Positions 23,801 through 45,382 of a stretch of DNA of 64,000 bases are shown one piece after another. The DNA lies in NCBI GenBank assembly GCA_051886655.1, contig JBJEYJ010000086.1, positions 38 through 64,037 of the forward strand, in the 5' to 3' direction. The notes beneath the pieces were generated by a model that was not told the origin of the DNA, did no database searches, and saw nothing but the letters and a program-made list of their open reading frames with translations. A program made the position numbers and the translations under genes. How positions within the stretch are numbered: position 1 is the stretch's first letter; each line of letters begins with the position of its first letter. The stretch comes from Bacilli bacterium. GTDB taxonomy: Bacteria > Bacillota_I > Bacilli_A > RF39 > UBA660.

Positions 23801-26244
23801 TTAATACTTGATAAATTACTAATTAACATTGGTAATGTAAATAATAAAGTAGAGCCAATATTAACAAATTTTTCTCAACCAGTTAAACTATCATCATTTA
23901 ATGTTTTAACAATTCCTACAAACTGTTGTGTAATACTTACAAGAGCTGTTATTCCTTGAACTGTTTGTTGTACTGTAGCAATCCTTTCTTCTCCTGATAA
24001 TCCTTGTTTTAATTGACTTTCTTCTTGTTTTATACGTTTTTCAAGTTTTTCTGTCTCTCCACTTTCTATAGCTTGTTGCATTTCTTGCTCATATCTAATA
24101 TCTTTTTCTATATTTAACTGACGTTCTAAAGCTTGATTAATTGTTTCTTGTAATTTTAAGGTATCTTGCTCACTAAGCTCATCGTTTTCAAAATCTTTTA
24201 ACATTTTTTGAACTACTAATGATTCTTTTTTATCTAATAGTTGTTGTTTCATTAATCTTTCTGCTGCGTCTAAAATATCTACTTGTAAATCTAAAGCATT
24301 ATTTATATCATCTTGAGTTTCATAACCTTCATTTATATATAATTGTAATTGTTTAAATATTGGCACTAATTTAGTAGCTTCTTTTTGAATTGTTTGAGTA
24401 TGTTGCTTTTGAGCATTTAATTTAGTTGTAATAGAAGAAAGTGTTTGATTATTATCTTTAGTTGCTTCTTCATAATCATAAATGGCAGCTACTCTTAATT
24501 CATCTTGTGCTAAATTATGTTTTAAAGTATTTAATTCATTATATCTTTCTGTTGATAACTCTTTTGATAATGCTAATAATCTTTCTGAATATTCTATTTC
24601 TCTTTCATATACTTCAATTTCATTTTGACTACCAGCTTGAGACACTCCTTGCTGAGCAAGATTTAATGCAGCTTGAGCATTTTGTTCATTAAGAGTATTT
24701 ATATCTCTATTATTTAACATCTGTCCTATGCCAGAACCAATTTGTTTACTAAAAATATTACCTAACATTAAACCAATATTTGTTAAACTAGATAATCCTC
24801 CACCAGTTGTATCTAAAAAATTATTAAATATTGATAATACATTTGTTAAAGCATCTGAAAAATCATTTACTGTATCCATATTAAATAAAGTATCATAAGT
24901 TCTTTCTGCTTCAGTTTTTAATTGTTGTAAATGAGCTTCTGTGCTTTCCATATAAATATCTTGTTGTTCTTGTAGTGTTCCAACTGCGTTTTGAGAATCT
25001 TCTAAAGCTTGAGTATACATATCTCAGCTATCAAATAATGCAATTAAACGTGAATATTGCATTTTTCCAGCCATTGCTACTGCCGCAGCTTGTTTTTGAG
25101 CCTGAGTTCATGTTTGTCATTTTTCAGCTGTATCTTCAATAACATCACCCATATCACGCATATTACCTTGTTCATCAAGAATTTCAATTCCTAATTCGTG
25201 TAATTTACTTGATACATTTCCTAGAGTTACACCATATTCATCTTCTCCATCAAGAGCTAAATCACCCATACGGGCATAAATTGTCTTAAATGCAGAACCA
25301 ACAGTTTCTGGAGCTTCTCTAGTTACAGAAATAACTGTAGCAAGAGTAGCGTTTAATTGATCAATATCAACGCCTGCACTATTTGCGGCTGATGCTACTT
25401 TACTCATACCAGTTGCCATTTCTTCTAAATCTGCAGCTGTATTTGCAGCAACTTTAGCTACTTTATCTATATATAATTCAGTTTCTTCTGCAGAAACTTT
25501 ATAACCATTTCAAATAGCTGTTAATTGCTCTGATACGTCTTCACCTGTTTGTGCAGTAACATTTGCAGCTTTTAAAGTAACTTCTGTTCTTGCTGCAGTT
25601 TCTGCATCACTTAAACCTTGTTGATAGTAAATTGTAGATGCTTGAGTATAATCTAATGTACTACTTCCTAATGCTTTTGCTGCTTTATTAGCTTGAACTG
25701 CAAAACGTTCCATATCATCGGCAGATTTATTAGAAACAATTCTAATTTCATTTAAACTTGTATCTAATTTTACTGAATATTCATAAGCTTTTTGAATTTC
25801 ATTAGTTATTCTATTAAAAACACTTGATGAAATCCCAAATCTTACTGTATTAGCAAATGTGGTTGCCATATCATCTAATAATTTATTTGATTGTTTTAAT
25901 TGTAAATTTGTACTTAATAATTCAGATTGTAATTTATTAAAAACATTTCCTTGACCTAATGATTCTAATTTGGTTTTCATTTGATCTATACTACCATATG
26001 TTTTAGTTATAGATTGATTAACTTTACTTAAGTCTCATTGATTAAGTTTAGAATTTCAAGCTGAATTTAAAATTGATTCTAGTTTTTTAGCTTCTATTGA
26101 AGCTTGAGATAATTCATCTGTTAAAGTTCCTAATGAACCAGCTTTATTAGCTTCTATCTGAATATTTTTTAAAATATTATAAATATCATTTAATCCAGAT
26201 TTATCAGCAGAAAAACCAATCTGAACATTAATTTTATTTGCCAT
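17839..26244 (-). CDS. tail tape measure protein, about 2801 aa, containing more than 30 in-frame TGA codons
   Basis: Twelve consecutive track ORFs (26056..26244 through 17839..18090) are all in one frame. Every boundary I checked is TGA, and the gaps contain no TAA or TAG. Coiled-coil repeats, a hydrophobic TM segment, a G-rich C-terminus and a TMP-like motif (...GSAFKTIYARM...). Strong RBS at 26245-26265. TAA at 17839. Confidence 0.8.
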
Positions 26245-26345
26245 CTCCTTATTCCTCCTTTTTTATTTCAAAAATAAAAACCTCTATTATTATATTATAA
26301 TAATAGAGGCTAAAAAATTATTTTATCTTGACCTTGCAAAAAATT

Positions 26346-26882
26346 TTATTTAATTGGTCTGTTTCCATTAGCAGCTTCAGCAAAATTTTTTACAGCTGAA
26401 AATTTCTCTGGATCAAAATTATCAACAATTTTTAGTGCTGCTTCTGCCTGAGCTGGTAAATCGTTTACAAATTTATTTAATACACTTGCTGCAGTTGTAG
26501 TATATTTCATTTCATTTTCAATTTGTTCTTCTAAAAAAGTGATTAAATCATTGTATTCTTCTTCTTTTATATTTTCCAAAATCAAACTAATTAATCCATT
26601 ACTTTTTAAACAATCATATAATTTACTTTCATCTTCTCTTTGTTTATCTGTAAAAGATAAATTTGTATACATATATATTAGATATAAATGAAAATACATA
26701 TCTATTTTAATTGGATTGTATATTCCATTTTCTTTACTATTTTGTAAAGTAATCATTACTAAATCATATTTATCTTCAATTGGTAGATAATTTAATAATT
26801 CAATTTCATTATCATTGAATTTTATTTTAGTTACTGAATTATCCACTTTTAATTTTAAATTTGCATAACTTACTTTTGCCAT
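26346..26882 (-). CDS. tail assembly chaperone-like protein, 178 aa
   Basis: Uninterrupted ORF immediately upstream of the TMP gene. Function inferred from position only. Confidence 0.45.
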   Translation of the reverse strand: MAKVSYANLKLKVDNSVTKIKFNDNEIELLNYLPIEDKYDLVMITLQNSKENGIYNPIKIDMYFHLYLIYMYTNLSFTDKQREDESKLYDCLKSNGLISLILENIKEEEYNDLITFLEEQIENEMKYTTTAASVLNKFVNDLPAQAEAALKIVDNFDPEKFSAVKNFAEAANGNRPIK

Positions 26883-26948
26883 TTTTAACTCTCCTTTTCT
26901 CTCTTTTTCTTATAATAATTATAACATTAATTTTTATCATTGTCAAGT

Positions 26949-28382
26949 TTAATGCTCATATTGAATTTGAGTTATTAAATTATTTAAGTTTTTAATTACT
27001 TGTCTAGAACGTACAAATGCCATTACATTTTTATCTTTTACTGTTAAATCTTCAAAACCTGACTCTGTATTAAAAATTTTCTTTAATTGTTGTCCTTTAT
27101 ATTCAACTCTAGAAGAGGCAATTCCTTGAATACTTAATCCAGGAAGCTTATCAGGTGTTGTTGTAGCTAATTCTTCAAAAAATTCATCAATTCTAATTAA
27201 ATCATCTAAATATTGTATAAACAAAACATTTTCTCCTTGATTTAATCCTGTTGTTGCATTTAAAAAATTTTGTGCAGATATTTTTCTTCTTATATAATAA
27301 CTAAATCCATTTTTTCCATTATCTGTATTATGATATAAATTATTATAAAAAATATATTTTTCTAAGTTATTAATTTGATTTACAAAAACTCCTAATTTAC
27401 TAGTTTGAAATGTAGTAGTAACTTTTTTACCTTTATGTAAAGATTGTGCTTTAGCACTAATACCAAAAGTTAAATTTATAATTCCATCTTGAGAATTTAT
27501 AGAAATTTCATAATCTCCTTTTTTTGTTGTTCCATTTATTTGTTGAGTTCCAGTTCCTTCAAAAGAAACTTTCATTTTATCATTTTCAATAGTTCGTAAA
27601 AATTTTTCCAATTCTTGTAGTGCAAATAATGCTCCAACTCCTTCACCTATTCCCCCAAGAATATCAGAAAATAAATAGTGCATAGGATAAATAAAAGAAC
27701 TATAGGAAATTTTTTTCCCTTTATATTCTACAGTTCCATTCAAATCTCCACTTTGTATTTGTTTTTTAATATTTTCTAAATTTTTTACTCTTTGTCTTAA
27801 TGTATTAAATGCACTTAAAGCAGTTTTGTTAATTGCTAATAAATTCAATCCATTTTCAGTTTGAAATAATGTATTTATATTACTAATTATTGAACTATTA
27901 TTTTTGTATTTACTTAAAATATAGTTCATATAATCATCATTATTTTGATTGAATACATTAATTATATCTTTAATATATTCAATATATTTATCTAATATAG
28001 ATATTTTTTGATTTATATCAGATGTCTTATTTAAAATAGAAGCTGTCTTTTGTGATTCCATAATACCTATTCTAATCTTATCTGGTAAAGAAGATGCTAT
28101 TTCTTGTTCTATATTAGATAAAGTATTATTAGAGTTAAGATCTTTCAAAATTCCTAATGCAGAAGCTATTGTTTCACCATCTTTATTTGATATCTGTAAA
28201 AGTTCTGACATGCGTCCTTTTAAAATATTCGCATCTTGTTTATAAATATTGCTGATAGTATCTCAATTCATATCTATCATTCCATTAACATATTTTTTTC
28301 TATAATTTAAATAATTTTCTTTTTTATAATGAATATAAATTTCTTGTGCTAAATTAATATCTTTTTTGGCTATATCTGCCAT
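26949..28382 (-). CDS. tail-associated protein of about 477 aa (track ORF extended at the N-terminus)
   Basis: Track ORF 26949..28211 extends in frame to an ATG near 28382 preceded by AAGGGGGAG, with one TGA in the extension. Confidence 0.5.
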
Positions 28383-28399
28383 ATAAACTCCCCCTTAAT

Positions 28400-28428
28400 A
28401 ACAAAAAAGAGGGAGGCAATAGCCTCCC
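28400..28428 (-). terminator. rho-independent terminator after the major tail gene (GGGAGGCTATTGCCTCCC plus U-tract)
   Basis: Perfect GC-rich hairpin followed by a T-run on the minus strand. Confidence 0.55.
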
Positions 28429-28480
28429 ATTAATATATTTTTAATTAAATATTTCCATTTGTAGTTTTTGTATTAGTAGA

Positions 28481-29407
28481 TTATTCTGCTTCTCCAGAAA
28501 CTTCTGTTGAGTCTGCAGCAGCTTCATCAATATCAAATCCAGCTGGATGTGGCATTACACTCTTATTCATTGTAGAACCAGCTTTAGCATCTTCAATAAC
28601 TTGCATTACACATAAAACTTTTTTAGTTCTATCAAACATTGTGTATCCTGGGAAAGCATCCATTGTAAATGTAAATGTAGATGGATCTCCTGTAGAAGCC
28701 ATTGAGAATGTAAAGTTAGATTGAATTTTTACGTTAGGTAATGTAATTTCAGCAGGCATATCAACACCATCAGATTGTCTTCTAAATAATGTACTTGCTT
28801 CAACATAGTAATATCCAGCAAAGTTAGCTGCATCGATTTGTAATTCAGAAACATTTGCGCTTGATTTTACAACATAGAAATCTACAAATACTGTTTTACC
28901 AGCTGCTGTAGTTCCTCCTGTTAAAGATTTACCATCTTCAGCAACTACTAATGCATCTAATATTTCTCCTGTTATAGAACCATCATCTTCAGTAATTACT
29001 ACAAATACTGGAGCTGTAGCATCTATTTTTTCAGCTTCTTCTAATGCGTCTGTTAAATCAATTTTTCCATCAGCACCAACATATGCTGTAGCTGTTGTAT
29101 GAACATGAACTTGTTGTTCTGCATCTTTAAATAATCCTGCACCAGATAAAATTGCAAATCCAATAGGTGATAATAAAGCATCTTCAACTGTAAATGTTAA
29201 AGTTTTTTCACCTTCCCATGCAATTAATCTTGTATTTCCTTTTCCACCTTGTGCATATACTGTTGTTGCAGCACCTTCAATAGTAGAAGTTTTAGCTGTA
29301 TCTATATAAAGAACTGGTTGACCTTTTTTAAATGTAGTGTTACCAATTTTAGTATCAGCTTTTGCTTTAAAAACAACGTCACATATTTCACGTACACCAA
29401 ATTTCAT
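28481..29407 (-). CDS. major tail protein, 308 aa, with no TGA codons
   Basis: Uninterrupted ORF located upstream of chaperone and TMP, followed by a strong terminator. Composition is typical of siphovirus major tail proteins. TAA stop. Confidence 0.65.
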   Translation of the reverse strand: MKFGVREICDVVFKAKADTKIGNTTFKKGQPVLYIDTAKTSTIEGAATTVYAQGGKGNTRLIAWEGEKTLTFTVEDALLSPIGFAILSGAGLFKDAEQQVHVHTTATAYVGADGKIDLTDALEEAEKIDATAPVFVVITEDDGSITGEILDALVVAEDGKSLTGGTTAAGKTVFVDFYVVKSSANVSELQIDAANFAGYYYVEASTLFRRQSDGVDMPAEITLPNVKIQSNFTFSMASTGDPSTFTFTMDAFPGYTMFDRTKKVLCVMQVIEDAKAGSTMNKSVMPHPAGFDIDEAAADSTEVSGEAE

Positions 29408-29456
29408 TTATGCGTATCCTCCTTTTTAAATTTTATAATTAATAATTATATAAGAT

Positions 29457-30200
29457 TTATGAATGAATATCTTTCATTCAATCGTCTACTTCTTTTAAGT
29501 CCTTTGCTCCTGCTAATTTTGCTTGTAAATAAATATCATAATTCATTTTTAACTCATAGCGCTTGAATTCATCAAATAATTGATAAACTGTATATTGCAA
29601 TAAAGTATTTATATCTTTATGTTCTCCAACTGCTAAAATAGATACATATCTACTTAATATATCTACTTTTTGATTATATTCTGCAGGCTTATCTTCTGCT
29701 AATTTTTGATGTCTTTTTTTTAATTTATCAGCAATTCTTTTAGCTAAGTCACCTTTTGGATTATAATCTAAATTAGATCCTTCACTTAAACAAAACATTG
29801 AATTTAAAATTTGTAAAAATTCATCATAGTTATTTTTATCAATAATAAATATCTCATTTGTTTCAATGTCTGTCAAAGAGATATTATTTATTTTAAAATC
29901 AATTTTATATTTAGGGAATAACATAGTAAGGACCATAAAAACGCATACTTTATTTTTTTGAACAATTGCATTTTGTTCTTTTATTATTGACATTATTATT
30001 TCAAAATTTGATAGATTTTCTAAATTAATTCTGTCCTCTTCATTTAAATTATCTTTTGAAAATCTTAAAAATTCGCATCCAGTATAAAAACTCTCTTCTC
30101 CAATATAAGCAATTTCTTTAATTGTAGGTTGATGAATAATTAATTTTGCTTTTTCAAATGGAATATCATTACCTGATAATAATAATAAATCATTTAACAT
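29457..30200 (-). CDS. neck / tail-completion-like protein, about 247 aa
   Basis: Track ORF 29478..30200 continues through TGA to TAA at about 29457. Position lies between head and tail genes. Confidence 0.45.
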
Positions 30201-30793
30201 TAAATCACCTACTCTTTAGGTTCTATAATATCATCACTACCATGAATTGCTCTATAAGAAAGAGTATAACCAGATAAATTTTCATCTAAAATAATTTGAT
30301 TACAACTTAAAAAATTAAAAGTTCCTATTCCAGATAGTTTACAATTATTTAAAATACCATCTATATAACCAGCAATTTTTAAAGGTCTTAATCTATAATT
30401 ACCTATATCTCAATAATCTGTATTACAAATGATATCAAAATTAACAGTACAATCTCTAAATTGAGGATTTGTTGCATTCATTGTAAAATTATCAAAAGAA
30501 ATTAATAAATAAGATTTAACCTCTTCATGCTCTGGAAAACGAATTTTAGGTTCTAATTTAATATATCCTTCTCTTTTTAATTTTTCAACCGTCATTTCTT
30601 TTATTTTATTTTTATAAATCTCACTTTCCATATTATCAAGACAATCATTTGTATTTATAACTAAAAGTCTTTTTAATATATCACTATGAGGTTGACTACT
30701 TGTAAATAATTTTCTTAAAATAGCTTCAGCATCTTTCTCACATGATAAAAATGATGACTCTATTTGTGGTATCATTACTAAATTACGTTTCAT
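30200..30793 (-). CDS. head-tail joining / tail terminator-like protein, about 197 aa
   Basis: Track ORF 30410..30793 continues through TGA to TAA near 30200 (TAATG overlap with the next gene). AAAGGAG RBS. Confidence 0.45.
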
Positions 30794-30814
30794 CTTTTTC
30801 TCCTTTTATCTCTT

Positions 30815-31780
30815 TTATAAAGATTTTATTATAAGTGATAGTATAATAGGTTCTTCATTTTCTATATTATAAATTAAATCAATATTGCCACTTCTACCTG
30901 TTATAACCTCAAGAGCAACATCAGTCTCAGTTTGACTAATAATTCTTGCTTTATTATTACTTAAACTTCAAGAACCACCTAATTTATTTACTATTGAATA
31001 TTGTTTTATATCATAAGGATAAACAATAGTATCACCAGCAATATGCGGCAATGACGGATCTATTTCTTCTATTTTTGGAATATTATTTTCTTTTTCTTCT
31101 TGTTCTATAGAATTTTGAAAAGTCTCTTGTAAAAATACTGTAATAATTCCATCAGAAGTAAGATTATCTATAGCTACAACCTCTCAAGGTTTATTTTTTA
31201 AAATAATTTTACTAAATCTATGAAAAAAAGCTTCTGTTTCTTCATTTTTAGTAATATATAGTTCTAAATCATAATTCATATCACTTCATGAACCAAAACT
31301 TCTTCTACTATGCCATAACAAAGTATGCGCTCTTGGTCCATGTACATAAACTTTATATTTGTTTTGATTAATTTCAATTTCATAATTACACTTTCTGATT
31401 TCTGCTCTAAAATAAGCATCTTCTTCAAGCATTTGTAAATAAACTAGCCAATAAGTATTTGTTTCTTTTCATTCAAAAATATCTCCTACTTGTAAATTAA
31501 TTTCTTCTTCACCTTTTGAAGTCTTATCTTCTAATTTATCTTTATTCAAACAAATATCTTTATATGGAATTGAAATAATTTTATCTTCATAATCAATTTT
31601 ATTTTTATCTGGATTAATTAAACATCTAAATTCTCTACCATCCTCTAAAATCGCGGTCGCCGCCTGATAAGAATATAGTAAAGCCTTTTTTAAACTTCTT
31701 AACTTATCTGACTGCATTCGACCTTCTTGATTTCCGCCATTATATAAAAGTCTGGCTTTTAAATTATCTAATCCTGACAT
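30815..31780 (-). CDS. structural protein of about 321 aa with several TGA codons
   Basis: Track ORF 31469..31780 continues in frame through five TGA codons to TAA near 30815. The track shows no ORF of 60 aa or more here because of the TGA codons. Confidence 0.5.
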
Positions 31781-31950
31781 TGTTTCATTAAACTATTCAT
31801 TAAACTTAAACATTCAAAAATTGTTCTTCTATATAAGAAAAAATCTTCTTGTTCTGTTAATGTAAATAGTCCTTCTAATTTATTTAATAATGGAAAAAAG
31901 ATTTCTTGTTGGTCGATTAACATTCTATCCATTCCAGCTAATTCTTCCAT
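31768..31950 (-). CDS. small protein of 60 to 68 aa
   Basis: Track ORF. Possible upstream TTG start with a GAAGG RBS. TAG stop. Confidence 0.4.
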   Translation of the reverse strand: MEELAGMDRMLIDQQEIFFPLLNKLEGLFTLTEQEDFFLYRRTIFECLSLMNSLMKQCQD

Positions 31951-32075
31951 AATTGTTGATAATGGAATTTTTCAATCAATTCCTTCTTCTCTATTTGGAA
32001 GTAATTTATATATTTGATTTGTAATCTTTTTTAAATTATTTTTTATTATTTCGTTATCTATCTCTATATTATATT

Positions 32076-32654
32076 TTAATTCCATATCTTATTAGCCCCC
32101 TCATTCTTCATAGGAGCCATAATTATGTCCATTGTAGAAAGCATTCTTCCAGTATCTTTATCTGCCACTCTACGTTTATATAATCTTTGTAAATGAAAAC
32201 CCTCTCTCTCATAATCTTTTTTTATCGTTAATAATTTTTGCATATGATTTGCTTGTGAAGTAAATTTAAAATCAGAACCGCTATATTTCATTCTTGTATT
32301 TTCAACACTAGCTAATTGTTGACCAAGTCATTCTACAACCATGTATGTAGTAATAATATTAATTTCTTCCTGGGTTAATATAATATTAAAATGACCGCCG
32401 CCAAAAATAAATGCTTTTACTTCTTTTTTATCACTTTCTACTCCTGCATAAGTAGTTTCTTCTTCTACATATTCTAATTCATAATTATTGATATCCTGCC
32501 TAGGAAATTCAAATTTAGGTAATGCAGAAATTAATAATTCTTGCAATAATCTAAAAGTATCTAATTCATTTAATTCCATATACATATCATCAGTTATTTT
32601 TGATAAAAAGTTATCATAAATATTAGAGAAAGGTGTAGTATTTATATTATCCAT
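32076..32654 (-). CDS. head-tail connector / head completion-like protein, about 192 aa
   Basis: Track ORFs 32328..32654 and 32076..32291 are joined across TGA at 32328. TAA at 32076. Confidence 0.5.
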
Positions 32655-32674
32655 ATTACACCTCTACTTTCTTT

Positions 32675-33316
32675 TTATTTAATGATTTTATATTTAGAGT
32701 TTGCTGCTGTAGTTACTGGTGTACTACGTCTTCCAGTAGCGTTTTGATCGTTGACAACTGGAGTTGCTCTTCTTACTTTTGTTTCATCAGAAGTATCATT
32801 ATTTTCTGTTTCTTTATTAATTTCTATAGCTTTAGTAACATTAAATCCTGTTTTTTCTAAAATTACTTGACGTTTTGCAACATCATTTAATTCAGTTTTT
32901 ACAGCTAAATCTTTAATTAAATCAATGACTCCTTTTGGAGCAAAGTCTAAAGTATCTTTAAATTGATCTAATGTTCCATTAGATAATAAATACTTTATTT
33001 CTTTTTCACTATATTTATATTCTGGTTCAACAGAACCTAGTAATTCAGCAATAGCTTCATCATTTTCAATCATTAGGCAATCCTCTAAAATAACTTTTCC
33101 GCCAGGTATATATGATAATTTTCTTAATTCTTCCATCGTAACTTCTTTAGTTTCTCCAACACTAAAGTCACGATGTAAATTTCCTAAATCTGGAATAGTA
33201 TAACCAACTCTTCCATTATCTCTATTTCTAACTTTTATTAATGTATCTTTGTCTAACATATTTTTATTCTCCTTTTCTCTCCTTAATATATTTACAAAAA
33301 AATTGGGGAAGAGCAT
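32675..33316 (-). CDS. hypothetical head-associated protein; probable start is at MLDKD... near 33259
   Basis: Track ORF. An internal ATG is preceded by AAAGGAGAA. Confidence 0.5.
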   Translation of the reverse strand: MLFPNFFVNILRREKENKNMLDKDTLIKVRNRDNGRVGYTIPDLGNLHRDFSVGETKEVTMEELRKLSYIPGGKVILEDCLMIENDEAIAELLGSVEPEYKYSEKEIKYLLSNGTLDQFKDTLDFAPKGVIDLIKDLAVKTELNDVAKRQVILEKTGFNVTKAIEINKETENNDTSDETKVRRATPVVNDQNATGRRSTPVTTAANSKYKIIK

Positions 33317-33370
33317 AATTAAAATCCTCTATTCAATTATACTATAATCTTCCCCTATATTTTTAAACTA

Positions 33371-34396
33371 TTATCTAGTTAAAGATGTATTTCTATATAC
33401 ACAGATATTATTTGTAATAATAGCTGCAACACCCATTTTCTTATAAACTTGAACTTCTCTACTTCTGTCATAGTTTTGATATTCATTTACAATTGTAGAA
33501 CCTTCAAATGCAACTCTAACTGGTTTACTAGCTCCTGTAGGGATAATCCATGCATATGCTGGATCGATTACTTTAACTTCATTAGTTTCATCTTCATAAG
33601 ATTGTGGTAATACAATTACATTATGTCCTTTATAATTAGCTAAGTATCCATTATTCCATCTTTGATCTTTCATATCATTGCTTCTCCATCCTTCTTCAGG
33701 AACCATTGTAGCAGCAAATTCGAAAGTACAGTAAATAGTAGATTGACCATAAGAGTCAGCAATACTAATTAGTCTATCCATTTCATTTTCTACGAAACTT
33801 GTTTGAGATGTTTGGTTAGCAGCTGGTAAATTTGTAACAGCTCCTTTTAAAGCTCTTTCAATTTCAATATAAACACATCTGTCTAAACCTTCCATAACGA
33901 TGTCTAAAACATCTGCAAAATCTACTCTTCCATCTAGAAACTCTTCAAAACCAATTTGAGCAGCTCCACCGAAAGCTGATGTTGGTACTTCAAATGTTTT
34001 TCCATCTAATTTAAATACTTCATAAATACCAGCTAATCCAACTTTAGTAATAAATTGTTTAGCACGTCTTTTAGATGCTTCTGTAATTCTTTGTGTAAAT
34101 ACAGGTTTGTCTCCTTGAGCAAAAGTTTTTACTTCAGCAAATTGTCCATATTGTTCCATAACTTTTCTTGGTAATACATCATCAATTGTTTCTTCAATTA
34201 ATGAAAATACTGTATTTTTATTTTCTCTATATAATTGATATGTTCCAGCAATTTCTTTAAGTTCATTTCTTAAAGTTTCATTTAAATCTGAGTAGCTAAA
34301 TTTATCTTCTCCAAAAGAATAAGCAACTTGTGAAGAAGGATTTGCATTTGCTACTGTTTTAGCTAATTTAATTAAATCTGATTTATTTAAACTCAT
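33371..34396 (-). CDS. major capsid protein, 341 aa. All 3 Trp are TGG and there is no TGA.
   Basis: Uninterrupted ORF with AAGGAGG RBS. It follows scaffold and head-protein genes. Size and composition are MCP-like. TAA stop. Confidence 0.65.
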   Translation of the reverse strand: MSLNKSDLIKLAKTVANANPSSQVAYSFGEDKFSYSDLNETLRNELKEIAGTYQLYRENKNTVFSLIEETIDDVLPRKVMEQYGQFAEVKTFAQGDKPVFTQRITEASKRRAKQFITKVGLAGIYEVFKLDGKTFEVPTSAFGGAAQIGFEEFLDGRVDFADVLDIVMEGLDRCVYIEIERALKGAVTNLPAANQTSQTSFVENEMDRLISIADSYGQSTIYCTFEFAATMVPEEGWRSNDMKDQRWNNGYLANYKGHNVIVLPQSYEDETNEVKVIDPAYAWIIPTGASKPVRVAFEGSTIVNEYQNYDRSREVQVYKKMGVAAIITNNICVYRNTSLTR

Positions 34397-34411
34397 TATA
34401 TCCTATCCTCC

Positions 34412-34975
34412 TTACGCAATTCTCATTACCTTTACGGCAGCTTGACCGTCAGCTAATGTATAAATTTTTACTACTTGGAATTTAATTGATCCATCACCAG
34501 TTTTAGATAAATATCCTTTAGCATTTGGAGATAATTCATCTCCTACTGATAAATCTTCTGTTCCTGTTATTTCTGCTTTTCCATCTGTATTTCCAGCTTC
34601 TAAGCAGTTTGTTGTGTAAATGTCTCCTATATTTGTTTTTATAACTCTAGGAACCATTTGACCTTTGAATGGTCCATAACCTTCATGAGTATAGTCAGAA
34701 CCTTTTGTATAATTTTCTTTAATCATGGCGAAATCTTTATATGTTTCTCTCCATCTATCATCATATAATTTTACTTCGTTGAATACCATCATCCATTCGC
34801 CTTTACCTGTAAAATTAACTTCACTATTAGCGTAGTCATATTTTACATATTGACCATTTTCAAGAACTTCAATATCTTCTGCTGCAGGTAATTGAGCATA
34901 AATTTGAGCTGTTCTTTGAGCTGATAAATGATTAGGTTCAACTTGACCAAAACCAATTCTATTAATTGTAGCCAT
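34412..34975 (-). CDS. head protein, 187 aa (decoration or auxiliary capsid protein?)
   Basis: Uninterrupted ORF between the scaffold and MCP genes. Confidence 0.5.
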   Translation of the reverse strand: MATINRIGFGQVEPNHLSAQRTAQIYAQLPAAEDIEVLENGQYVKYDYANSEVNFTGKGEWMMVFNEVKLYDDRWRETYKDFAMIKENYTKGSDYTHEGYGPFKGQMVPRVIKTNIGDIYTTNCLEAGNTDGKAEITGTEDLSVGDELSPNAKGYLSKTGDGSIKFQVVKIYTLADGQAAVKVMRIA

Positions 34976-35001
34976 TATGTATCCTCCTTATTTTTATTAA
35001 A

Positions 35002-36375
35002 TTAATTCTCTCTACTTTTTTGAGTATTTTTTAATGCTGTAACCCATGCTGGCACAGAACTCTCTGTATTTTCAAGAGTATAAGTTGTAACTTCTTTATC
35101 TTCTACTGTATTATTATTTTTTGAAGAATTGTCTAAATCAAAATTAACCTTTTTTCTAACACAAATTATAGATAATTTTGCTTCAATGTCTTCTAATGAA
35201 TAATTAGCTTTATTTGCAATAACATCTGCTTTATCTTCATCTGATAACATATAGAAAGATTTAATTAATTCATCTTTTTGTTTATTTTCAATTTCTTGTT
35301 TAAATTGAACAAGTGCTTCATATTTTTCATTTAATTCAGCATATTGAATTTTTAAACTTTCATTTTCTTCAACTAATAAAGAATATTTTTTAGATTCATC
35401 GTCTTCTTCTTCTTTATCATCATTTTTTTCTTTTTTGTCATCTTCTTCAGAATTATCTTCTGCATGTTTAGTTTTTTCTTTCTTAGAACTTCCTCCTCCA
35501 CATGCATTTTTTGTAACATCTTCTTCTTCATCATCTTCATTTTTAGCAAATGTATCTTGAGCAGATTGAGCCTCTGTAGAATCTTGATTTTCAATTATTG
35601 GAGTTTCATTTGTTAATTCTTCTTCATTATTAACAATTTCTTCTTCAATATTTTCTTTATCATTATCCATATTGTTTTGTCCTCCTTCTAATGCAAATTT
35701 TAATTCTTGCATCATAGTATACAATGTTTTCTTAAAAGTATCATCTACTTTTGTAAATGAAGTACTTATTTCTGGTGCGGTAACACTTGCGCCTTCAAAA
35801 CAAGGCTCAACATCATCACCTAAAATACATAATTTTGAAAATATTGCATCATTTATAATGAAAAAATCCATACCAGTTTTACTATTTGTTGACCAATTTC
35901 CATCTAAAGAATCTTCATCTAATTCCATAGATTGAGGTCTACCTTCTTGTAATGCTAGCTGACATTCTTCATATTGTTTTGTCCATAAATATCCAGTAGT
36001 CATTAAATACTCTCTAGTTACTGTATTTCCAAAATCATCTGTATCTTCAAATTTTTGAAATCAAACTTTTGCGTCAGGAGCTACAAATCCATAAGGTTTA
36101 GTTAAACATTCAAATTTAATTCCTTCATCATCAAAAATAACTCTTTCTCCATGATCTGCAAAGTCTTCTTTTTCCTCTTTATAATACCCAACAATAGGAG
36201 CACCTCTAAGAGTTTTTGCCATATCACTAGCTACTTCTTTTGTTATATAGCTATGATTACGATTTTCTCCAATATATAAAACTTTTATTTCACAACTAGA
36301 CATTAATGGATTAATATCTAATGGTTGTAAGTTAATAAATTCTGGAGAATCAATAGTTGCTATAGATTGATGCAT
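35002..36375 (-). CDS. capsid scaffolding protein, about 457 aa, with a highly acidic coiled-coil C-terminal half
   Basis: Track ORFs 36061..36375 and 35002..36003 are in frame and joined by TGA at 36061. The D/E/K-rich low-complexity region is typical of scaffold proteins. TAA stop. Confidence 0.55.
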
Positions 36376-36451
36376 TGTATAATTCTCCTCTCTCTTAATA
36401 ATTAACTATAATAATATGATTTCTTACTTAATCAAATTATTATTTTTTGTC

Positions 36452-38050
36452 CTAATTTTCACTTTCTTTATTTTGTATTGTTTTTTCTGTAACATCTTTT
36501 CCTTTAGACTCATTAGTAGGTCTTCCGCCTTGACTATCTGAATCACTTGTTTTATTTCTATTAGCTAATACATCTGCATTCATTGTATTAGAAGACATTG
36601 GTGGTATGAATACATTTACCAAGTCTAATATATCATTTTCAAAATATGCATTTGCCAATATTGAACTTTGAGATTGACCCAACGCTATCTGCGGCAACAT
36701 TTTTGAATATCCTAATTGAGTTTGTTCTTTATAAAGTTTAGCCATTTCTTTATAATTATATATTGTAGTAGTTAAAATAGAAATTCTATAATATAATTTT
36801 TTTGGAGATGTATTAAATTTATCATTAATAACATAATTTAAAAAATCTTCAAATTGAAGAAGTAAATTATACATTGCTGCTTCATCATTTAATATAGATT
36901 TTTCTAATGCTATATTTCCATCTGTATTAAATTGCATTTGAGAAACACCAGCTTCATTATATACAGTTCTTTCTACTTTTTCTAATTCGTCTACTGTTGT
37001 TGTAGTGCTATTATCAGCCATGTCCGCAACATCAACATCAGCAAAAGTAGTTAATACATCTATACCAATTGCTTTACCCAACATTCTTACTGCATTATTA
37101 TGTAATTGTTGTGCTTCATCAACATCAAAAACTAAATCTCCATTTTTATCTACTGGCATTTTTTGAATAATAATTTTTAAAAGTTTTTGAGCCATTTTTT
37201 TTCTATCTAATTCTTGAGCTTCATCCAAATCTATTATAGATGGTATAACTGAAATAAAAGCAGGAAAATCCTCTCCATTTATATTAAATTTTATAACGTT
37301 TTTTGTTTCTAATAAGTACCATCCTATTGTATCTCCAGCGAAATCAGGTTTTAATTTATCTTCTTTATAAGCAATGTAACCTTTTCTAAATTCTTCTGGA
37401 AATAATTTTAACATTTTTATTCTTTGAGTTGTATCTCTAAACATTTCATCAAAAAATTTCATATTAAATTCAACTGCAGGACGTCCATTTACACTAAATC
37501 TAGAACGACAATACGCAGCAGGTAATTCTTGAATAGTAATTCTATTATCATTAGGAATAATATATCCATAATAACATCCATTTCTAATAACTTTTAAAGC
37601 TACCTCTCCAAAATATCTTTTTATATCTGAATTATCTAAATAATTTAATACTTTATCAAAAGTACTAAGTATTTTTTCATTTTTTACAGAATCTGAATTT
37701 ATATAAGGTGTAACCATTCAATCATATCTATATAAATATGCCATATAACGGCACAATCTTGAATAAATACCACTAGTTTTATAAAAGAAATTAGAAACAT
37801 CTCTCATAGTATCATAATCAGAATTATTAATCGCTCTTAATACTTCTTTTTTATCTCCTAATCTAGAATTGATTTTTTTATAATTACTTAAATCAACAAC
37901 AGCATCATCTAAAGTTTTTACTCCAACTTTAATTTTTGAAAAATCAATTTGATTAAAAGGAATATTATTATTAAAATTATTTCCGGTGTCATTAATAGTT
38001 TCCATTGAAAACCCTTTTTTCTTAATTTCTTGCATTCTTCTATTAATCAA
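36452..38050 (-). CDS. portal protein, about 532 aa
   Basis: Track ORFs 37718..38050 and 36452..37717 abut at an in-frame TGA. Position is between terminase and scaffold. Size is portal-like. TAG stop. Confidence 0.6.
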
Positions 38051-38088
38051 AGATAGACACCTTACCTTTCTTCTCTATTTTTTGTATA

Positions 38089-38457
38089 TTAAAAACCTCC
38101 TGCCGCATAATAAGCATTCATTATATAATCATAATTGATTCTTCCTTCATCCGTATATGGAATTGCAATTAAAATAATATTATGTTTTCTACAATAATCT
38201 CTTTTTTGCATATCATTATACTGTTGTTTTCTTAATCCAGAAAAACCACCAAACTTACTTTTAGGTTGATAATGTTGAATACCTTGATATTCAATTAAAA
38301 AATCTAAATCATTATTATCATCGAATACAGCAAAATCAAATCTTAAAGGTCTACCATTCGAACTAATCAAATCAGGAAATGAATATTCTTCTATAAAATT
38401 TAAGTTTGCTTCTTTTAAAATTTCTTCTATTTTTATTTCACCACGACTAGCTCTCAT
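38089..38457 (-). CDS. PD-(D/E)xK-type endonuclease, 122 aa (free-standing homing-endonuclease-like insertion between terminase and portal)
   Basis: D...(D/E)xK-like motif FDFAV...DFLIEYQG. A small gene in the classic homing-endonuclease location. Confidence 0.45.
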   Translation of the reverse strand: MRASRGEIKIEEILKEANLNFIEEYSFPDLISSNGRPLRFDFAVFDDNNDLDFLIEYQGIQHYQPKSKFGGFSGLRKQQYNDMQKRDYCRKHNIILIAIPYTDEGRINYDYIMNAYYAAGGF

Positions 38458-38537
38458 AAAACCTCCTTTTAATATACTTTTTGAAATCTATAATTATTTT
38501 ATTTTTTATGTATAAAAATATTCCAAAATTGTCCATT

Positions 38538-40271
38538 CTATGAAAAGAACATCATAGCAGCAATATTTCTTTGTTTTTTTCTTTTCTTTTTATCCTCTTC
38601 TTGTTTTATATAATATAGTCCATATTCAAAAGCAGAAAACTTATCTTTTTTTATTCCTCTTGAAGATTGCTTTAAAATAATATTAACACCTTCATTTTCT
38701 TCTACCAAATTTAACATTTGTTCTCTTAAAATAGTTGTTAATGTAAATGGTTTTAAGTACTCTGCTCTTTTATCTGCGTCCATATTCTGTCCCATTTTTG
38801 TACCCATTAATTTAGTTTTTGCTTGATTTTCATCTATTAAAAACTTTATCTTTCCGCTGGCTAGTTGAGTTTGTACATACGTATGGGCTTCAGTATTTAT
38901 TGGTGCATTTGCTTTAATTAAAAATAATGCATCTATTTCTGTTTCTCCAGTTTTATATTTTTTATAAAATCCTTCTTCATCATTTTCTACTCCAAAATCT
39001 GGTAATATTTCTCCGCTATCAGGATCTATTTGTGATTTAACCATATAATCTATTAATCCAATACCAAGTCCATTAGCATCAATTGCAATTTTTCTAGCTT
39101 TATATTTATAAAATAATCTTTTAATGTTAATAGCCTGTTCTTCAAAATGCTCTTCTTCTCAAGAGTACAAATTAACTAAAGTTTTTAATGAAGTTCCTTG
39201 CGCTTGCGGCGTTACTTTAAAAACACAAACTTCAGTTGTGCAACCCTTACGGCCAACGTCAACTCCAAGCACATAATATGCAGTTTTTGATGACCTTCCG
39301 CTAAATTCATATTCAGGTTGTAATAATACTCTATGTTTATCAAATTTTTCCGCAGAGAAAAATGCGTTTTCAGCATCACCACTTCATTCTGATTCATACT
39401 CTCTTGCAAAAGAACTATCATTATAAGTTCCATCTAATTTCAATTCTTCAATAAAACTTTTTCTTAATAACTTTTCCATAACAGGAACTCTTCAAGTTCC
39501 ACCTAATACAATAGCTTGTTCTGGATCAATTATTTGTTGAATTAAAGTTTGAATTAATTTTTCATAAGCAAAAGAATTTTTTCAACCAGCAGTAGTAACA
39601 AAAATTTGAGATTTATTAATTACTTCTTCCTCATGTCTACTTCCATCTGATAATCTTCTATCAACGTTCATAGTAGGAATAATAACTTCATTTAACATTG
39701 TTTGGTCTACTAGTATACACTCTTCAACTAATCCACCAGTAGCACGCTTACCTCTTGAAGATTGTTGAGCTGCCATAATATCTAACTTACTACCATTTTT
39801 AAATAAATATTCAACCATATTTTTAGAGGCTTTAGACGCTCCTCTTGACCAATCAATTTCATTCTTTAGTCCCGGAATTAATTTGCATAATTCTTCAGCT
39901 TTCTCTCTTGCAATACCTGCCGCCTGTTCTTTTCCTCCAGTAGTAACAAATAAATGAGCTCCTGGATATAAAACACATCTCAACATTAAAATTAATACTG
40001 ATAAAAATGACTTAGAATAAGCACGAGGAAAAGTTGCATAAGCATATCTATGACGCATTACCGCCCTTAAAAATAATCTTTGATAAAAAAACAAATGAAA
40101 ATTCTCTGGATTATTTCCGCATAAAAATTCAACAAACATATCTGGATATTCTCTTCAATATGCAATATACTGTCTAATTAATGGCATTTGTTGTCTAATT
40201 CTTTCTTCTGAAATACCTGTCTTTTTAGTCATCATAGAAGAAGATAATTTCATTAAATCTGCTAATGCCAT
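38538..40271 (-). CDS. terminase large subunit, about 577 aa
   Basis: Track ORFs 39582..40139 and 38538..39044 plus unlisted in-frame segments are joined by several TGA codons. ATG at 40271 overlaps the upstream TAG. ATPase and nuclease-like regions present. TAG stop at 38538. Confidence 0.8.
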
Positions 40272-40273
40272 GA

Positions 40274-41458
40274 CTAATCATCCCCTTTATATATTTCTTC
40301 ATCATTTTGTTTTTGTTCTTCTATACTATTATAAAATTCTTCAATATGTTCATCGATTAATTCACTTGGTTCTCCTGTTTCAAACTCTTGATCACTAGCT
40401 TCATTTAATTCTTGTTGAATTTGAATTTTCTTTAATGCATCTTCAATTTGTTGTCCAAAACCTAAATCTTGTGTAACAAGTTTATAAACATAATTATTCA
40501 TATCTTTTAATGTTAAGTCTACTTTATCTTGAGGAATATCTGTCGCAAAACGTGGAATAAAACCTTCTCTTTCACACATTGCAACTAGCTCTCCAACACA
40601 ATCAACAAAATCATTTTTTTCCTCTTTATTTTGAGCTGCAGTGAACTTTGCTGATTTTCTTAATGATTCGGATACTCTAGATAATTTTTGAAATCCATCT
40701 AAATCTCCTATATCTATTGCTTGATTCATTTTTAAATTTGTTTTACAAATCAAAATTAGAGTATTTATTGTATCCGCATCTTGAATATCAAAAGAAGCCA
40801 TCATTTCTTCATACATTTTTTCTAACTCTATTCATTCATTAGGTTTATATAATCTTCCTCATTTCATAGCTAAATATAATTTATCATCTTCTGTTAATTC
40901 TGCCGCAGGACCGCTTAATTCATCTTCATCTATGAAAGAAACATTTGAAGCAAATGGATTTCCAGATTCACTAGGAGATTGAGTAGGGGCAGCCGCATAT
41001 AATTCATTTTGTGCTTTTGCGCTTACTAAAGTTTTATATTCTGCTTCACTAATTTCTCCATTAGCGTATCTTTCTTTTGTCATTTTTTCTAATTCTTCTC
41101 ATTCTTTAGTTTTATTTAAATTTGTTTCTATATTTTTAGCTTGTAATTTTTCTGAATCACTCCATCTAAAATCTTTTCATTGCTTTAGTTTCATTTTTGA
41201 TATATACTTACCAAATACAGACATTCCATTTAAATTAGGATTTTTTGCAAAAGCTCTATCTCTTAAAACATTTCATTCCTCTGGAATATAAGGAACATCC
41301 ATTTTTTCTAATAATCATAAAAATGTGTCTGGATTAAAATTATCTATATGCATAGTTAAACATTTTTTACATAATTCTGTTTTTCTTCCATCTTTATATG
41401 TATAAAATTGATTTTCATCCATTGTCTTTCCACATTTTTCACAAACACATGTAGACAT
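40274..41458 (-). CDS. DNA-packaging / terminase small subunit-like protein, about 394 aa, with an N-terminal C4 zinc ribbon
   Basis: AAAGGAG RBS. CVCEKCGK...CKKC motif. Five in-frame TGA codons. Lies immediately upstream of terL. Confidence 0.4.
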
Positions 41459-41475
41459 ATTCTTCATCTCCTTTA

Positions 41476-43986: not shown

Positions 43987-44099
43987 TGGATAGTGTTGTT
44001 GCAGCTTTATTAACGATAGCTTGGGCTAGTACCAAAAATAGAGATGTTAGTCAACAAGAAATAAAATCTGTTTATAAGAATATGAAAGATAGTTTGTAA
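43986..44099 (+). CDS. small protein of about 37 aa
   Basis: TAATG overlap with the upstream gene. Translation MDSVVAALLTIAWASTKNRDVSQQEIKSVYKNMKDSL. Confidence 0.3.
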   Translation: MDSVVAALLTIAWASTKNRDVSQQEIKSVYKNMKDSL

Positions 44100-44665: not shown

Positions 44666-44694
44666 TTGACAAATAAACACAATGGGTGTATAAT
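44666..44694 (+). promoter_or_regulatory. early promoter cassette (TTGACA, 17 nt, TATAAT) preceded by an A/T-tract UP-like element
   Basis: Perfect consensus hexamers with 17-nt spacing. Confidence 0.6.
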
Positions 44695-45367: not shown

Positions 45368-45382
45368 AAAGGGTTGATAAAA

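What the first reader, a model, noticed from the sequence alone, without database searches (positions are those of the whole stretch)
28481..34396. The most abundant virion proteins (major capsid, major tail) avoid TGA entirely while neighbouring late genes are full of it
MCP (341 aa, 3 Trp all TGG) and major tail protein (308 aa, Trp TGG) have zero TGA. TMP has more than 30, and the 1559-aa and 937-aa tail proteins about 10 each. In a native code-4 AT-rich genome TGA would dominate everywhere. Avoidance in the highest-expression genes suggests suppression is inefficient or regulatory, pointing to tRNA-suppressor-based recoding.
Basis: seen in the sequence. Interest (0 to 1): 0.6.

Follow-up and report, generated by a model that had tools for sequence, protein, structure and literature searches.

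The report
Bulk virion genes shun recoded TGA
In this gut phage, which reads the stop codon TGA as tryptophan in its late genes, the genes for the proteins made in largest amounts (capsid, tail tube and one neighbour) keep the ordinary tryptophan codon, and 31 related phages that recode either TGA or TAG do the same, which suggests that reading through a stop codon has a cost.

Summary
MCP (33371-34396, 3 TGG, 0 TGA) and the tail tube protein (28481-29407, 1 TGG, 0 TGA) lack TGA. The other late genes carry 102 TGA against 31 TGG (Fisher p=0.004). The TMP has 25 TGA, not more than 30.

TGA means Trp: window TGA positions align with W in standard-code relatives. The 24 early genes have 0 internal TGA and 41 TGG, and two of them end in TGA. 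So this is a dual-coded phage, not a native code-4 genome.

Four Trp codons are thin evidence, so I fetched 80 relatives. The clade holds standard-code, TGA-recoded and TAG-recoded members. In 20 of 20 TGA genomes and 11 of 11 TAG genomes, MCP, tube and an adjacent 187-aa head-module gene use the recoded stop less than the other late genes do (1:108 vs 337:393; 8:345 vs 499:1384).

The same three genes show the codon bias typical of highly expressed genes, and that bias correlates inversely with recoded-codon use. Recent gene transfer is excluded.

Best reading: selection against a costly codon, in proportion to expression. No suppressor tRNA is present on this partial contig, so that step is unproven. 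I found no report of this capsid/tube avoidance in the papers searched. New member of a known kind; moderate interest.

The parts
33371..34396 (-). Major capsid protein gene (341 aa): 0 TGA, 3 TGG
   Evidence: Counts. Precomputed Pfam PF27364 (YonB) on this exact protein. It sits after the portal, a scaffold-like gene and the 187-aa gene. A distant homologue in Bacillus phage vB_BsuS_PJN02 is annotated as major capsid protein. The AlphaFold model failed (pLDDT 36), so the fold is not confirmed.
28481..29407 (-). Tail tube / major tail protein gene (308 aa): 0 TGA, 1 TGG
   Evidence: Precomputed Pfam PF27173 (YomU_Tube) on this protein. PHROG 2729, virion structural protein. Homologues are annotated tail tube or major tail protein in Bacillus phages Izhevsk, Kirov, KoopaTroopa and Thrax. 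Weak PDB sequence hits to tail tube proteins, E=0.085.
34412..34975 (-). 187-aa head-module gene of unknown function, directly upstream of MCP: 0 TGA, 2 TGG, same codon-bias class as MCP and tube
   Evidence: Pooled over the TGA-recoded relatives 0:24, and over the TAG-recoded relatives 4:111. AlphaFold model pLDDT 77 and beta-rich, but no informative fold match. An abundant decoration or scaffold role is inferred, not shown.
35002..36375 (-). 457-aa scaffold-like gene (YonD_N family): 1 TGA, 3 TGG, intermediate avoidance
   Evidence: Pooled 8:58 in the TGA-recoded relatives.
1..42573 (-). Late structural gene array read with TGA = Trp: 102 TGA, 35 TGG. GC3 is 4-14% in most genes (up to 17%). 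All genes end in TAA or TAG
   Evidence: TGA positions align with W in standard-code relatives (801 W, 111 Y, 79 F; Gly rare).
17839..26244 (-). Tape measure protein gene (2801 aa): 25 TGA, 4 TGG
   Evidence: Pfam PhageMin_Tail.
13058..17737 (-). 1559-aa tail protein gene: 15 TGA, 2 TGG
4494..7256 (-).
38538..40271 (-). 577-aa gene taken as the large terminase (TerL) from its size and its place upstream of the portal gene; no family match was obtained: 5 TGA, 1 TGG. All 5 conserved Trp sites are polymorphic TGA/TGG among the TGA-recoded relatives
   Evidence: One search lists no Pfam family for this product. Four of the five Trp codons shared with standard-code relative L350 are TGA here.
36452..38035 (-). 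527-aa gene taken as the portal from its size and its place between the terminase-like and scaffold-like genes; no family match was obtained: 1 TGA, 1 TGG
   Evidence: One search lists no Pfam family for this product.
28411..28428 (-). Terminator-like G+C-rich hairpin with a T-run, directly downstream of the tube gene
   Evidence: GGGAGGC-TATT-GCCTCCC followed by TCTTTTTTGT. Consensus match only. It fits higher expression of the genes upstream of it than of those downstream.
42752..64000 (.). Early/middle region in standard code: 24 genes, 0 internal TGA, 41 TGG
   Evidence: For example 58440-59990 (0:11) and 60757-62292 (0:10; DUF2828/DUF7788).
45036..45044 (+). Early gene 44727-45038 ends in TGA, with TAA two codons later
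57195..57200 (-). Early gene ends in TGA, immediately followed by TAA (tandem stop)

Best explanation
The window is nearly all of a 64.3-kb contig of an SPbeta-like gut siphovirus. The phage uses two codes. Its early genes use the standard code, with TGA as a rare stop. Its late genes read TGA as Trp.

Once TGA could be read, the genome's strong A/T pressure converted most TGG codons to TGA in late genes made in small amounts. There, TGA reaches 83-100% of Trp codons, about the level expected for any A-ending synonym.

In the genes translated most heavily (major capsid, tail tube, the adjacent 187-aa head-module gene, and partly the scaffold-like gene), every TGA costs something. The possible costs are competition with release factor 2, which gives truncated protein; slow decoding by a scarce suppressor; or misincorporation. 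Because the cost scales with the number of copies made, purifying selection keeps TGG in those genes.

What is shown: the dual code, TGA = Trp, the gene-specific avoidance, its repetition in independent TGA and TAG lineages, and its correlation with codon bias.

What is inferred: that codon bias reflects expression level, that the cost arises at decoding, and that a phage suppressor tRNA does the decoding.
For: 1. Dual code. Late genes 102 TGA: 35 TGG; early genes 0:41, with two genes ending in TGA.

2. TGA = Trp. Window TGA positions align with W in standard-code relatives; several columns are W in 46/46 or 51/51 relatives.

3. Replication. The clade holds standard-code, TGA-recoded and TAG-recoded members, with at least 3-4 separate TGA lineages and at least 3 TAG lineages on an NJ tree. 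MCP + tube + the 187-aa gene use the recoded stop less than the other late genes in 20/20 TGA genomes and 11/11 TAG genomes. Pooled: 1:108 vs 337:393 (p=2e-25) and 8:345 vs 499:1384 (p=1e-31).

4. Independent events. On each gene's own tree, 6 of the 7 conserved Trp sites in MCP, tube, the 187-aa gene and g23 are fixed TGG, with 1 change. Of the 28 such sites in the ten other late genes (leaving out the scaffold-like gene), none is fixed TGG, and they show 135 changes. The 10 conserved Gln sites of MCP show 0 changes to TAG, against 20 changes at 18 sites in the portal.

5. Expression proxy. In all three code groups, MCP, tube and the 187-aa gene have NNC at two-fold pyrimidine-ending codons of 0.22-0.34, against 0.06-0.18 in most other late genes (two TAG-group genes reach 0.24-0.30). 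In the TGA group they have almost no G/C-ending four-fold codons and no CAG (0:219 in MCP). Spearman correlation of NNC with recoded fraction is -0.67 (TGA group) and -0.63 (TAG group), both p=0.006.

6. The avoidance is specific to TGA. The genes that most avoid G-ending codons are exactly the ones that keep TGG.

7. Not a matter of time or gene transfer. The closest standard-code relative is L350 (MCP 92% identical). Synonymous codon differences at identical residues are 0.26 for MCP, 0.21 for tube and 0.22 for the 187-aa gene, within the 0.16-0.35 range of the other genes. Yet 0 of their 6 shared Trp codons became TGA, against 26 of 36 elsewhere.

8. Context. T follows sense TGA in 13-19% of cases and follows TGG in 26-37%. 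This fits avoidance of strong RF2 termination contexts; the link between +4 U and strong termination is established knowledge for E. coli.

9. A terminator-like hairpin lies just after the tube gene.
Against: - No tRNA, release-factor or Trp-tRNA synthetase gene is in the window, so the decoding machinery is unknown.
- Expression is inferred from codon bias and from what such proteins usually do, not measured.
- The 187-aa gene has no assigned function.
- MCP identity rests on family membership and gene order; the structure model failed.
- Avoidance is not universal among recoded phages. Yutin et al. used stops in MCP to diagnose recoding in crAss-like phages (PMC7886860). Cook et al. could identify MCP in only 57% of table-15 phages under table 11 (PMC11210395).
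- The relatives are not fully independent samples.
- The +4 context effect could partly reflect TGGG avoidance.
Confidence: 0.65

Rival explanations
1. Timing or regulation. MCP, tube and the 187-aa gene are kept free of TGA so that the bulk proteins can be translated before the code switch, or independently of it. Recoded stops then gate only the low-copy and dangerous late functions (packaging, tail tip, lysis).
For: Borges et al. propose recoding as a post-transcriptional timer, and they found integrase families depleted of recoded stops. TGA-free genes are translatable in standard code by construction. The early genes of this window are also TGA-free.
Against: The three genes are interleaved, on one strand and with short gaps, with genes that do carry TGA (g26 upstream; g18-g22 between MCP and tube; g16 downstream), so they are probably co-transcribed with them. 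Avoidance is graded and follows codon bias (scaffold-like gene 0.085-0.12, portal 0.24-0.26, TerL 0.60). A timer would predict all-or-none. Capsid and tube made without portal, terminase or tape measure have no obvious early use.
Confidence: 0.15
2. Accuracy rather than yield. The suppressor, or near-cognate reading, sometimes inserts a residue other than Trp. Lattice-forming proteins tolerate this least.
For: The avoided genes encode proteins that polymerise into the capsid and the tube. Some window TGA positions align with Y, F or L in relatives, mainly in TerL and TMP.
Against: Most TGA codons in other genes sit at strictly conserved Trp columns (46/46, 51/51 W), including in portal and TerL, which are also assembly-critical. 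The general codon-bias signature points to expression level. This is a variant of the best explanation, not an opposite.
Confidence: 0.1
3. Mosaicism. The head genes and the tube gene were acquired recently from a standard-code relative and have not yet had time to accumulate TGA.
For: The clade mixes codes over short distances, and the closest long relative uses the standard code.
Against: Synonymous divergence of MCP, tube and the 187-aa gene from L350 equals that of their neighbours (0.21-0.26 against 0.16-0.35). GC3 is as low as elsewhere (0.08-0.14). MCP and tube are 4 kb apart, with TGA-bearing genes between them. The same pattern recurs in 31 genomes, which would need repeated transfer of the same genes.
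Confidence: 0.03
4. Chance. There are too few Trp codons (4) for the pattern to mean anything.
For: Within the window alone p=0.004 after post-hoc choice of genes, and heterogeneity p=0.027.
Against: Replicated in 20/20 and 11/11 related genomes, and at the level of independent substitution events.
Confidence: 0.02

Closest known systems
Alternatively coded (stop-codon-recoded) gut phages: TGA to Trp or TAG to Gln in late genes, standard code in early genes (Ivanova 2014, from my own knowledge; Yutin 2021, PMC7886860; Borges 2021 preprint, 10.1101/2021.08.26.457843)
   Same: Low GC. TAA-dominated stops. In-frame TGA confined to the structural block. Early genes in standard code. Code changes over short phylogenetic distances.
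   Different: Those studies report enrichment in structural and lysis genes and depletion in integrases. I found no report that capsid and tail tube genes are spared within the recoded block ('capsid' occurs 0 times in the Borges preprint). No suppressor tRNA could be shown here.
phAss-1 / proposed Phassvirus and related ~135-kb siphoviruses (Babkin 2023, PMC10607447)
   Same: Same wider clade (MCP 52.6% identical), with a very long tape measure protein. phAss-1 MCP, tube and the 187-aa homologue also lack the recoded stop (0:21 against 33:162 elsewhere).
   Different: phAss-1 recodes TAG to Gln and carries three Sup(CTA) tRNAs. The window recodes TGA to Trp. The paper reports only TAG recoding in the group and does not mention the spared genes.
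Bacillus phage SPbeta structural module (Pfam YonB, YonD_N, YonG_N, YomU_Tube, YomV_2nd, YomW)
   Same: The window's own proteins hit these families in the same order.
   Different: SPbeta uses the standard code. The window shares family-level similarity only. The host is unknown (the contig is binned as 'Bacilli bacterium').
Translational selection on synonymous codons in highly expressed genes, and avoidance of ambiguously decoded codons in such genes (general principle, from my own knowledge)
   Same: Gene-specific bias that rises with presumed expression. The disfavoured codon is the one read by the scarcer or competed decoder.
   Different: Here the disfavoured 'synonym' is a stop codon whose reading depends on the state of infection, and two different stop codons show the same effect in sister lineages.

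Membership tests
Stop-codon-recoded phage, TGA to Trp in late genes | In-frame TGA in conserved late genes that would otherwise be fragmented | tested here: met
   ORF coverage rises from 51 kb to 79 kb when TGA is read through, and the longest ORF from 666 to 2808 aa. 102 in-frame TGA in 31 late genes.
Stop-codon-recoded phage, TGA to Trp in late genes | TGA positions correspond to Trp (not Gly) in standard-code homologues | tested here: met
   801 W, 111 Y, 79 F; Gly rare (below every residue in the 12-residue tally). Many columns are 100% W. 26 TGA in the window pair with TGG in L350.
Stop-codon-recoded phage, TGA to Trp in late genes | A block of genes that stays compatible with the standard code | tested here: met
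   24 genes at 42.7-64 kb: 0 internal TGA, 41 TGG, and two end in TGA.
Stop-codon-recoded phage, TGA to Trp in late genes | Phage-encoded suppressor tRNA with anticodon UCA | tested here: inconclusive
   No tRNA in the window or in the Logan contigs of the same phage. The contig is only 64.3 kb. Relatives carry arrays of 17-27 tRNAs upstream of the DUF2828 gene, and about 46 of those 80 loci include Sup(CTA). I could not reach such an array in any TGA-recoded relative.
Stop-codon-recoded phage, TGA to Trp in late genes | Host uses the standard code | not testable with these tools
   The host is unknown. The contig is binned in an NCBI MAG named 'Bacilli bacterium'. The standard-code early genes argue for a standard-code host.
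Native code-4 genome or prophage (Mycoplasmatales type) | TGA is the dominant Trp codon throughout, and TGA is never a stop | tested here: not met
   Early genes 0:41. Two early genes end in TGA. MCP, tube and the 187-aa gene are 0:6.
SPbeta-like siphovirus structural module | MCP in the YonB family, tube in YomU_Tube, with YonD, YonG, YomV and YomW in the same order, plus a long tape measure protein | tested here: met
   Precomputed Pfam hits on the window's own proteins in Logan contig SRR30616806_11778. The local Pfam copy lacks these newer families.
Highly expressed gene class under translational selection | Distinct synonymous codon usage compared with neighbouring genes on the same strand | tested here: met
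   NNC at two-fold sites 0.17-0.25 in the window, against a median of about 0.06; 0.32-0.34 against 0.06-0.19 in the TGA group. The same signature appears in the standard-code relatives.
Highly expressed gene class under translational selection | Measured high mRNA or protein abundance | not testable with these tools
   No expression or proteome data for this phage.

The most novel reading that the evidence does not exclude
Recoded stops act as multiplicative translational attenuators that set virion stoichiometry. If each TGA is read through with efficiency below 1, output falls with the number of TGA codons. The 2801-aa tape measure protein (25 TGA), tail tip proteins (8-15) and terminase (5) would then be throttled, while the proteins needed in hundreds of copies (capsid, tube, the 187-aa protein) carry none. 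On this reading, TGA density would be selected for, not merely tolerated, and would have evolved convergently with TAG in sister lineages.
Probability: 0.12. Interest if true: 0.75.

Novelty: new member of a known kind. Interest (0 to 1): 0.5.

Why it matters
Recoded phages are usually described by blocks: early genes in standard code, late genes recoded. The usual explanation is a timing switch for lysis. This result shows structure inside the late block. The proteins made in bulk stay in standard code, in every recoded member of this clade examined, whichever stop codon is recoded.

That is evidence from sequence alone that reading a reassigned stop remains costly, so the reassignment is probably competitive or incomplete rather than clean.

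There are practical consequences:
- Capsid and tail tube genes are the ones most likely to be called intact under table 11. Checks for recoding that rely on MCP would miss this clade.
- The ratio of recoded to standard codons per gene could serve as an expression ranking for uncultured phages.
- The clade offers natural triplets (standard, TGA, TAG) for testing how code change evolves.

Tried and rejected
**Search for the suppressor tRNA**
- ARAGORN and Rfam on the window found nothing.
- Loci around phAss-1 NAMPT and NrdD returned only phAss-like, TAG-recoding phages.
- Loci around the window's DUF2828 gene returned 80 relatives with tRNA arrays, about 46 of them with Sup(CTA), but no TGA-recoded genome and no Sup(TCA).
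- Two anticodon-arm DNA patterns found many Sup(TCA) tRNAs, none on contigs of this clade's TGA group.
- tRNA k-mers are too poorly conserved in the clade to use as probes.
- An exact 40-mer from the window is absent from the metagenome and genome collections.
The Logan contigs of the same phage add only about 1.7 kb on the left and 0.25 kb on the right, with no tRNA.

**Protein identity**
- Local Pfam and NCBIfam gave nothing for MCP, tube or the 187-aa gene.
- PDB sequence and profile searches gave only weak tail tube hits.
- AlphaFold of MCP with a shallow alignment failed (pLDDT 36).

**Readings considered and rejected**
- TGA = Gly (code 25): rejected.
- Native code 4: rejected.
- Recent horizontal transfer of the head genes: rejected.
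- Chance: rejected.

Full report
**What the window is**

The window is 64 kb at 27% GC. Reading TGA through raises ORF coverage from 51 kb to 79 kb and the longest ORF from 666 to 2808 aa.

Positions 1-42573 hold a tightly packed array of 31 genes on the minus strand. The precomputed Pfam families on these very proteins name them after the Bacillus phage SPbeta structural module: YonG_N, YonD_N, YonB (the gene called MCP), YomW, YomV_2nd, YomU_Tube (the gene called major tail protein) and PhageMin_Tail. No family hit was on record for the 577-aa and 527-aa genes that I call terminase and portal; those labels rest on size and gene order only.

Homologues of the tube gene are annotated as tail tube or major tail protein in several Bacillus phages. 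A distant homologue of the capsid gene is annotated as major capsid protein.

The 187-aa protein encoded just upstream of MCP is 100% identical to an NCBI entry, 'MAG: hypothetical protein ACI4PE_03230 [Bacilli bacterium]', on a 64,298-bp contig. So the window is almost the whole contig, and it is a partial phage genome. The annotated relatives are 113-170 kb.

**Checking the observation**

- MCP (33371-34396): 0 TGA, 3 TGG.
- Tube (28481-29407): 0 TGA, 1 TGG.
- All late genes together: 102 TGA, 35 TGG.
- TMP: 25:4 (not more than 30). The 1559-aa protein: 15:2. The 920-aa protein: 8:4.

Fisher's test for MCP + tube against the rest gives p=0.0037. Heterogeneity among the late genes gives p=0.027 from 20,000 binomial simulations. 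On its own this is thin: four codons, chosen after looking.

**What TGA means, and whether the code is native**

Where the window has TGA, standard-code relatives have W 801 times, Y 111 and F 79; Gly is rare. Many columns are 46/46 or 51/51 W. So TGA is Trp, not Gly.

The 24 genes at 42.7-64 kb have no internal TGA and 41 TGG. Two of them end in TGA, with a TAA one or two codons later. The genome therefore uses two codes, as described for alternatively coded gut phages (PMC7886860; the Borges preprint). It is not a native code-4 genome.

**Replication in relatives**

A search with MCP returned 80 IMG/VR loci at 63-85% identity, each with up to 10 kb of flank on either side. Counting in-frame stops inside BLAST alignments to the window's proteins sorted them as follows (after moving L004 to the TGA group and L081 to the TAG group, as was done from then on):
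- 50 standard-code genomes.
- 20 TGA-recoded genomes.
- 10 TAG-recoded genomes, or 11 with the published TAG-recoding phage phAss-1.

On an NJ tree of head proteins, TGA recoding falls in at least 3-4 separate lineages and TAG recoding in at least 3.

Pooled counts of recoded against standard codons (where L004 and L081 were still counted as standard code):

| Gene | TGA group (TGA:TGG) | TAG group (TAG:CAA+CAG) |
|---|---|---|
| MCP | 1:63 | 2:137 |
| Tube | 0:15 | 2:64 |
| 187-aa gene | 0:24 | 4:111 |
| TerL | 63:42 | 48:140 |
| g30 | 69:51 | 27:120 |
| TMP | 61:27 | 77:143 |
| Portal | 10:31 | 69:193 |

In every one of the 20 TGA genomes and 11 TAG genomes, the three genes use the recoded stop less than the other late genes. 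Pooled, this is 1:108 against 337:393 (p=2e-25) and 8:345 against 499:1384 (p=1e-31).

**Independence of the events**

These genomes are related, so I also counted changes by parsimony on each gene's own NJ tree.
- In the TGA group, 6 of the 7 conserved Trp sites in MCP, tube, the 187-aa gene and g23 are fixed TGG, with 1 change in all.
- Of the 28 conserved Trp sites in the ten other late genes (leaving out the scaffold-like gene, 4 sites and 2 changes), none is fixed TGG, and they show 135 changes.
- In the TAG group, MCP has 10 conserved Gln sites and no change to TAG. The portal has 18 sites and 20 changes.

**Why these genes**

In all three code groups, including the standard-code relatives, MCP, tube and the 187-aa gene share a distinctive synonymous usage.
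- C over T at two-fold pyrimidine-ending codons: 0.22-0.34, against 0.06-0.18 in most other late genes (two TAG-group genes reach 0.24-0.30).
- Lower use of G-ending four-fold codons in the TGA and standard-code groups (close to none in the TGA group).
- In the TGA group, no CAG at all (0:219 in MCP).

This is the classic signature of translational selection in highly expressed genes, and it cannot be mutational, because the genes are interleaved with ordinary ones on the same strand.

Across gene families, this index correlates inversely with recoded-codon use (Spearman -0.67 and -0.63, p=0.006 each). The scaffold-like gene and the portal are intermediate.

The genes that most avoid G-ending codons are exactly those that keep TGG. 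So TGA is not treated as just another A-ending synonym; it is specifically disfavoured.

**Excluding transfer or lack of time**

The closest long relative is L350 (ENA ERZ1767641 NODE_35, 115 kb; MCP 92% and TerL 85% identical). It uses the standard code.
- At residues identical between the two phages, the codon differs in 26% of cases for MCP, 21% for tube and 22% for the 187-aa gene. The range for the other genes is 16-35%.
- Yet 0 of the 6 shared Trp codons in these three genes became TGA, against 26 of 36 elsewhere (hypergeometric p of about 0.0015, my own arithmetic).
- A TGA stop of g22 in L350 corresponds to TGG-AAT-TAA in the window. This shows adaptation of late-gene stops to the new code.

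**Hints about the mechanism**

- T follows sense TGA in 13-19% of cases, and follows TGG in 26-37%. This fits avoidance of strong RF2 termination contexts, though it is not corrected for phylogeny.
- A G+C-rich hairpin with a T-run lies directly after the tube gene.
- No tRNA, release factor or aminoacyl-tRNA synthetase is present in the window.
- In relatives, an array of 17-27 tRNAs, about 46 of the 80 loci including Sup(CTA), lies immediately upstream of the DUF2828/DUF7788 gene. In the window that position holds an HNH gene and genes on the opposite strand, and the contig ends soon after.
- I could not reach a tRNA array in any TGA-recoded relative. The suppressor step therefore remains inferred.

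**Comparison with what is known**

The system is a known kind: a stop-codon-recoded phage with standard-code early genes. The clade was known to include TAG recoders (phAss-1, PMC10607447). TGA recoding in it is not mentioned in that paper.

Borges et al. tested protein families for depletion of recoded stops, and the preprint names only integrases as avoiding them. The word 'capsid' does not occur in the preprint. The phAss-1 paper does not note the spared genes.

Capsid genes in crAss-like phages do carry recoded stops. The avoidance is therefore not universal and may depend on how strongly the capsid gene is selected for codon usage.

**Verdict**

A timing role is the main rival. The suppressor tRNA is unproven.

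It is a new member of a known kind, with a within-block pattern that I found unreported in the literature I could search. Interest is moderate, because the explanation follows from general principles of codon selection. The pattern does give a direct, testable handle on how complete phage code switches are.

Noticed in passing
window 1-64000: The window is almost all of a 64,298-bp NCBI MAG contig binned as 'Bacilli bacterium' (protein ACI4PE_03230 is 100% identical to the 187-aa gene product). It is a partial phage genome inside a bacterial bin, so the binning is only a weak hint about the host.
   Followed up: partly
L002-L081, L350-L354 (relatives of window 23-44 kb): One clade of AT-rich SPbeta-like gut siphoviruses holds standard-code, TGA-recoded and TAG-recoded members, interleaved on the tree. 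The degree of recoding is graded, from 3 to 28 in-frame TGA per ~20-kb late segment. The window's nearest long relative (MCP 92% identical) uses the standard code.
   Followed up: yes
window 60757-62292 (- strand); L105-L184: A DUF2828/DUF7788 (vWA-like) gene lies directly downstream of arrays of 17-27 tRNAs in relatives, and next to tRNA arrays in two unrelated phages (L185, L225). In the window the array position holds an HNH endonuclease gene (62385-62957) and genes on the opposite strand instead.
   Followed up: partly
window 45036-45044 (+) and 57195-57200 (-): The only two early genes that end in TGA have a TAA one or two codons downstream. These look like back-up stops that would limit read-through once TGA is being suppressed.
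   Followed up: partly
window 32076-32085 (- strand) vs L350: The TGA stop of g22 in the standard-code relative corresponds to TGG-AAT-TAA in the window. The late-gene stop seems to have been moved to TAA after TGA became sense.
   Followed up: partly
window late genes; TGA-group loci: The base after sense TGA is T in 13-19% of cases and G in 29-33%. After TGG it is T in 26-37% and G in 9-15%. This may reflect avoidance of strong RF2 contexts, avoidance of TGGG, or both.
   Followed up: partly
window 8043-9814 (- strand): Three consecutive late genes (93, 393 and 101 aa) contain no Trp codon of either kind. The 393-aa gene is only 18% GC and matches no family in Pfam or NCBIfam.
   Followed up: partly
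window 58440-59990 (- strand): A 516-aa early protein with a Cys-rich C-terminal half and 11 Trp (all TGG). No Pfam or NCBIfam match.
   Followed up: partly
window 52642-52737: A degenerate tandem repeat (units of about 8, 20, 36 and 44 bases, ACATATCT-like) at the point where + strand and - strand early genes converge and the GC skew changes sign. Possibly an origin, a terminus or a regulatory array.
   Followed up: no
window 26918-26946 and 26279-26311 (- strand): A perfect TTGACA-17-TATAAT promoter match with an extended -10 TG lies upstream of g15. A long A/T-rich hairpin with a T-run lies between g15 and the tape measure gene.
   Followed up: no
TAG-recoded loci L071-L080, L001: In the TAG-recoded relatives MCP prefers CAG (100 CAG : 37 CAA), while most other late genes prefer CAA. 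So the gene with the most CAG codons, each one C-to-T step from TAG, has almost no TAG.
   Followed up: partly
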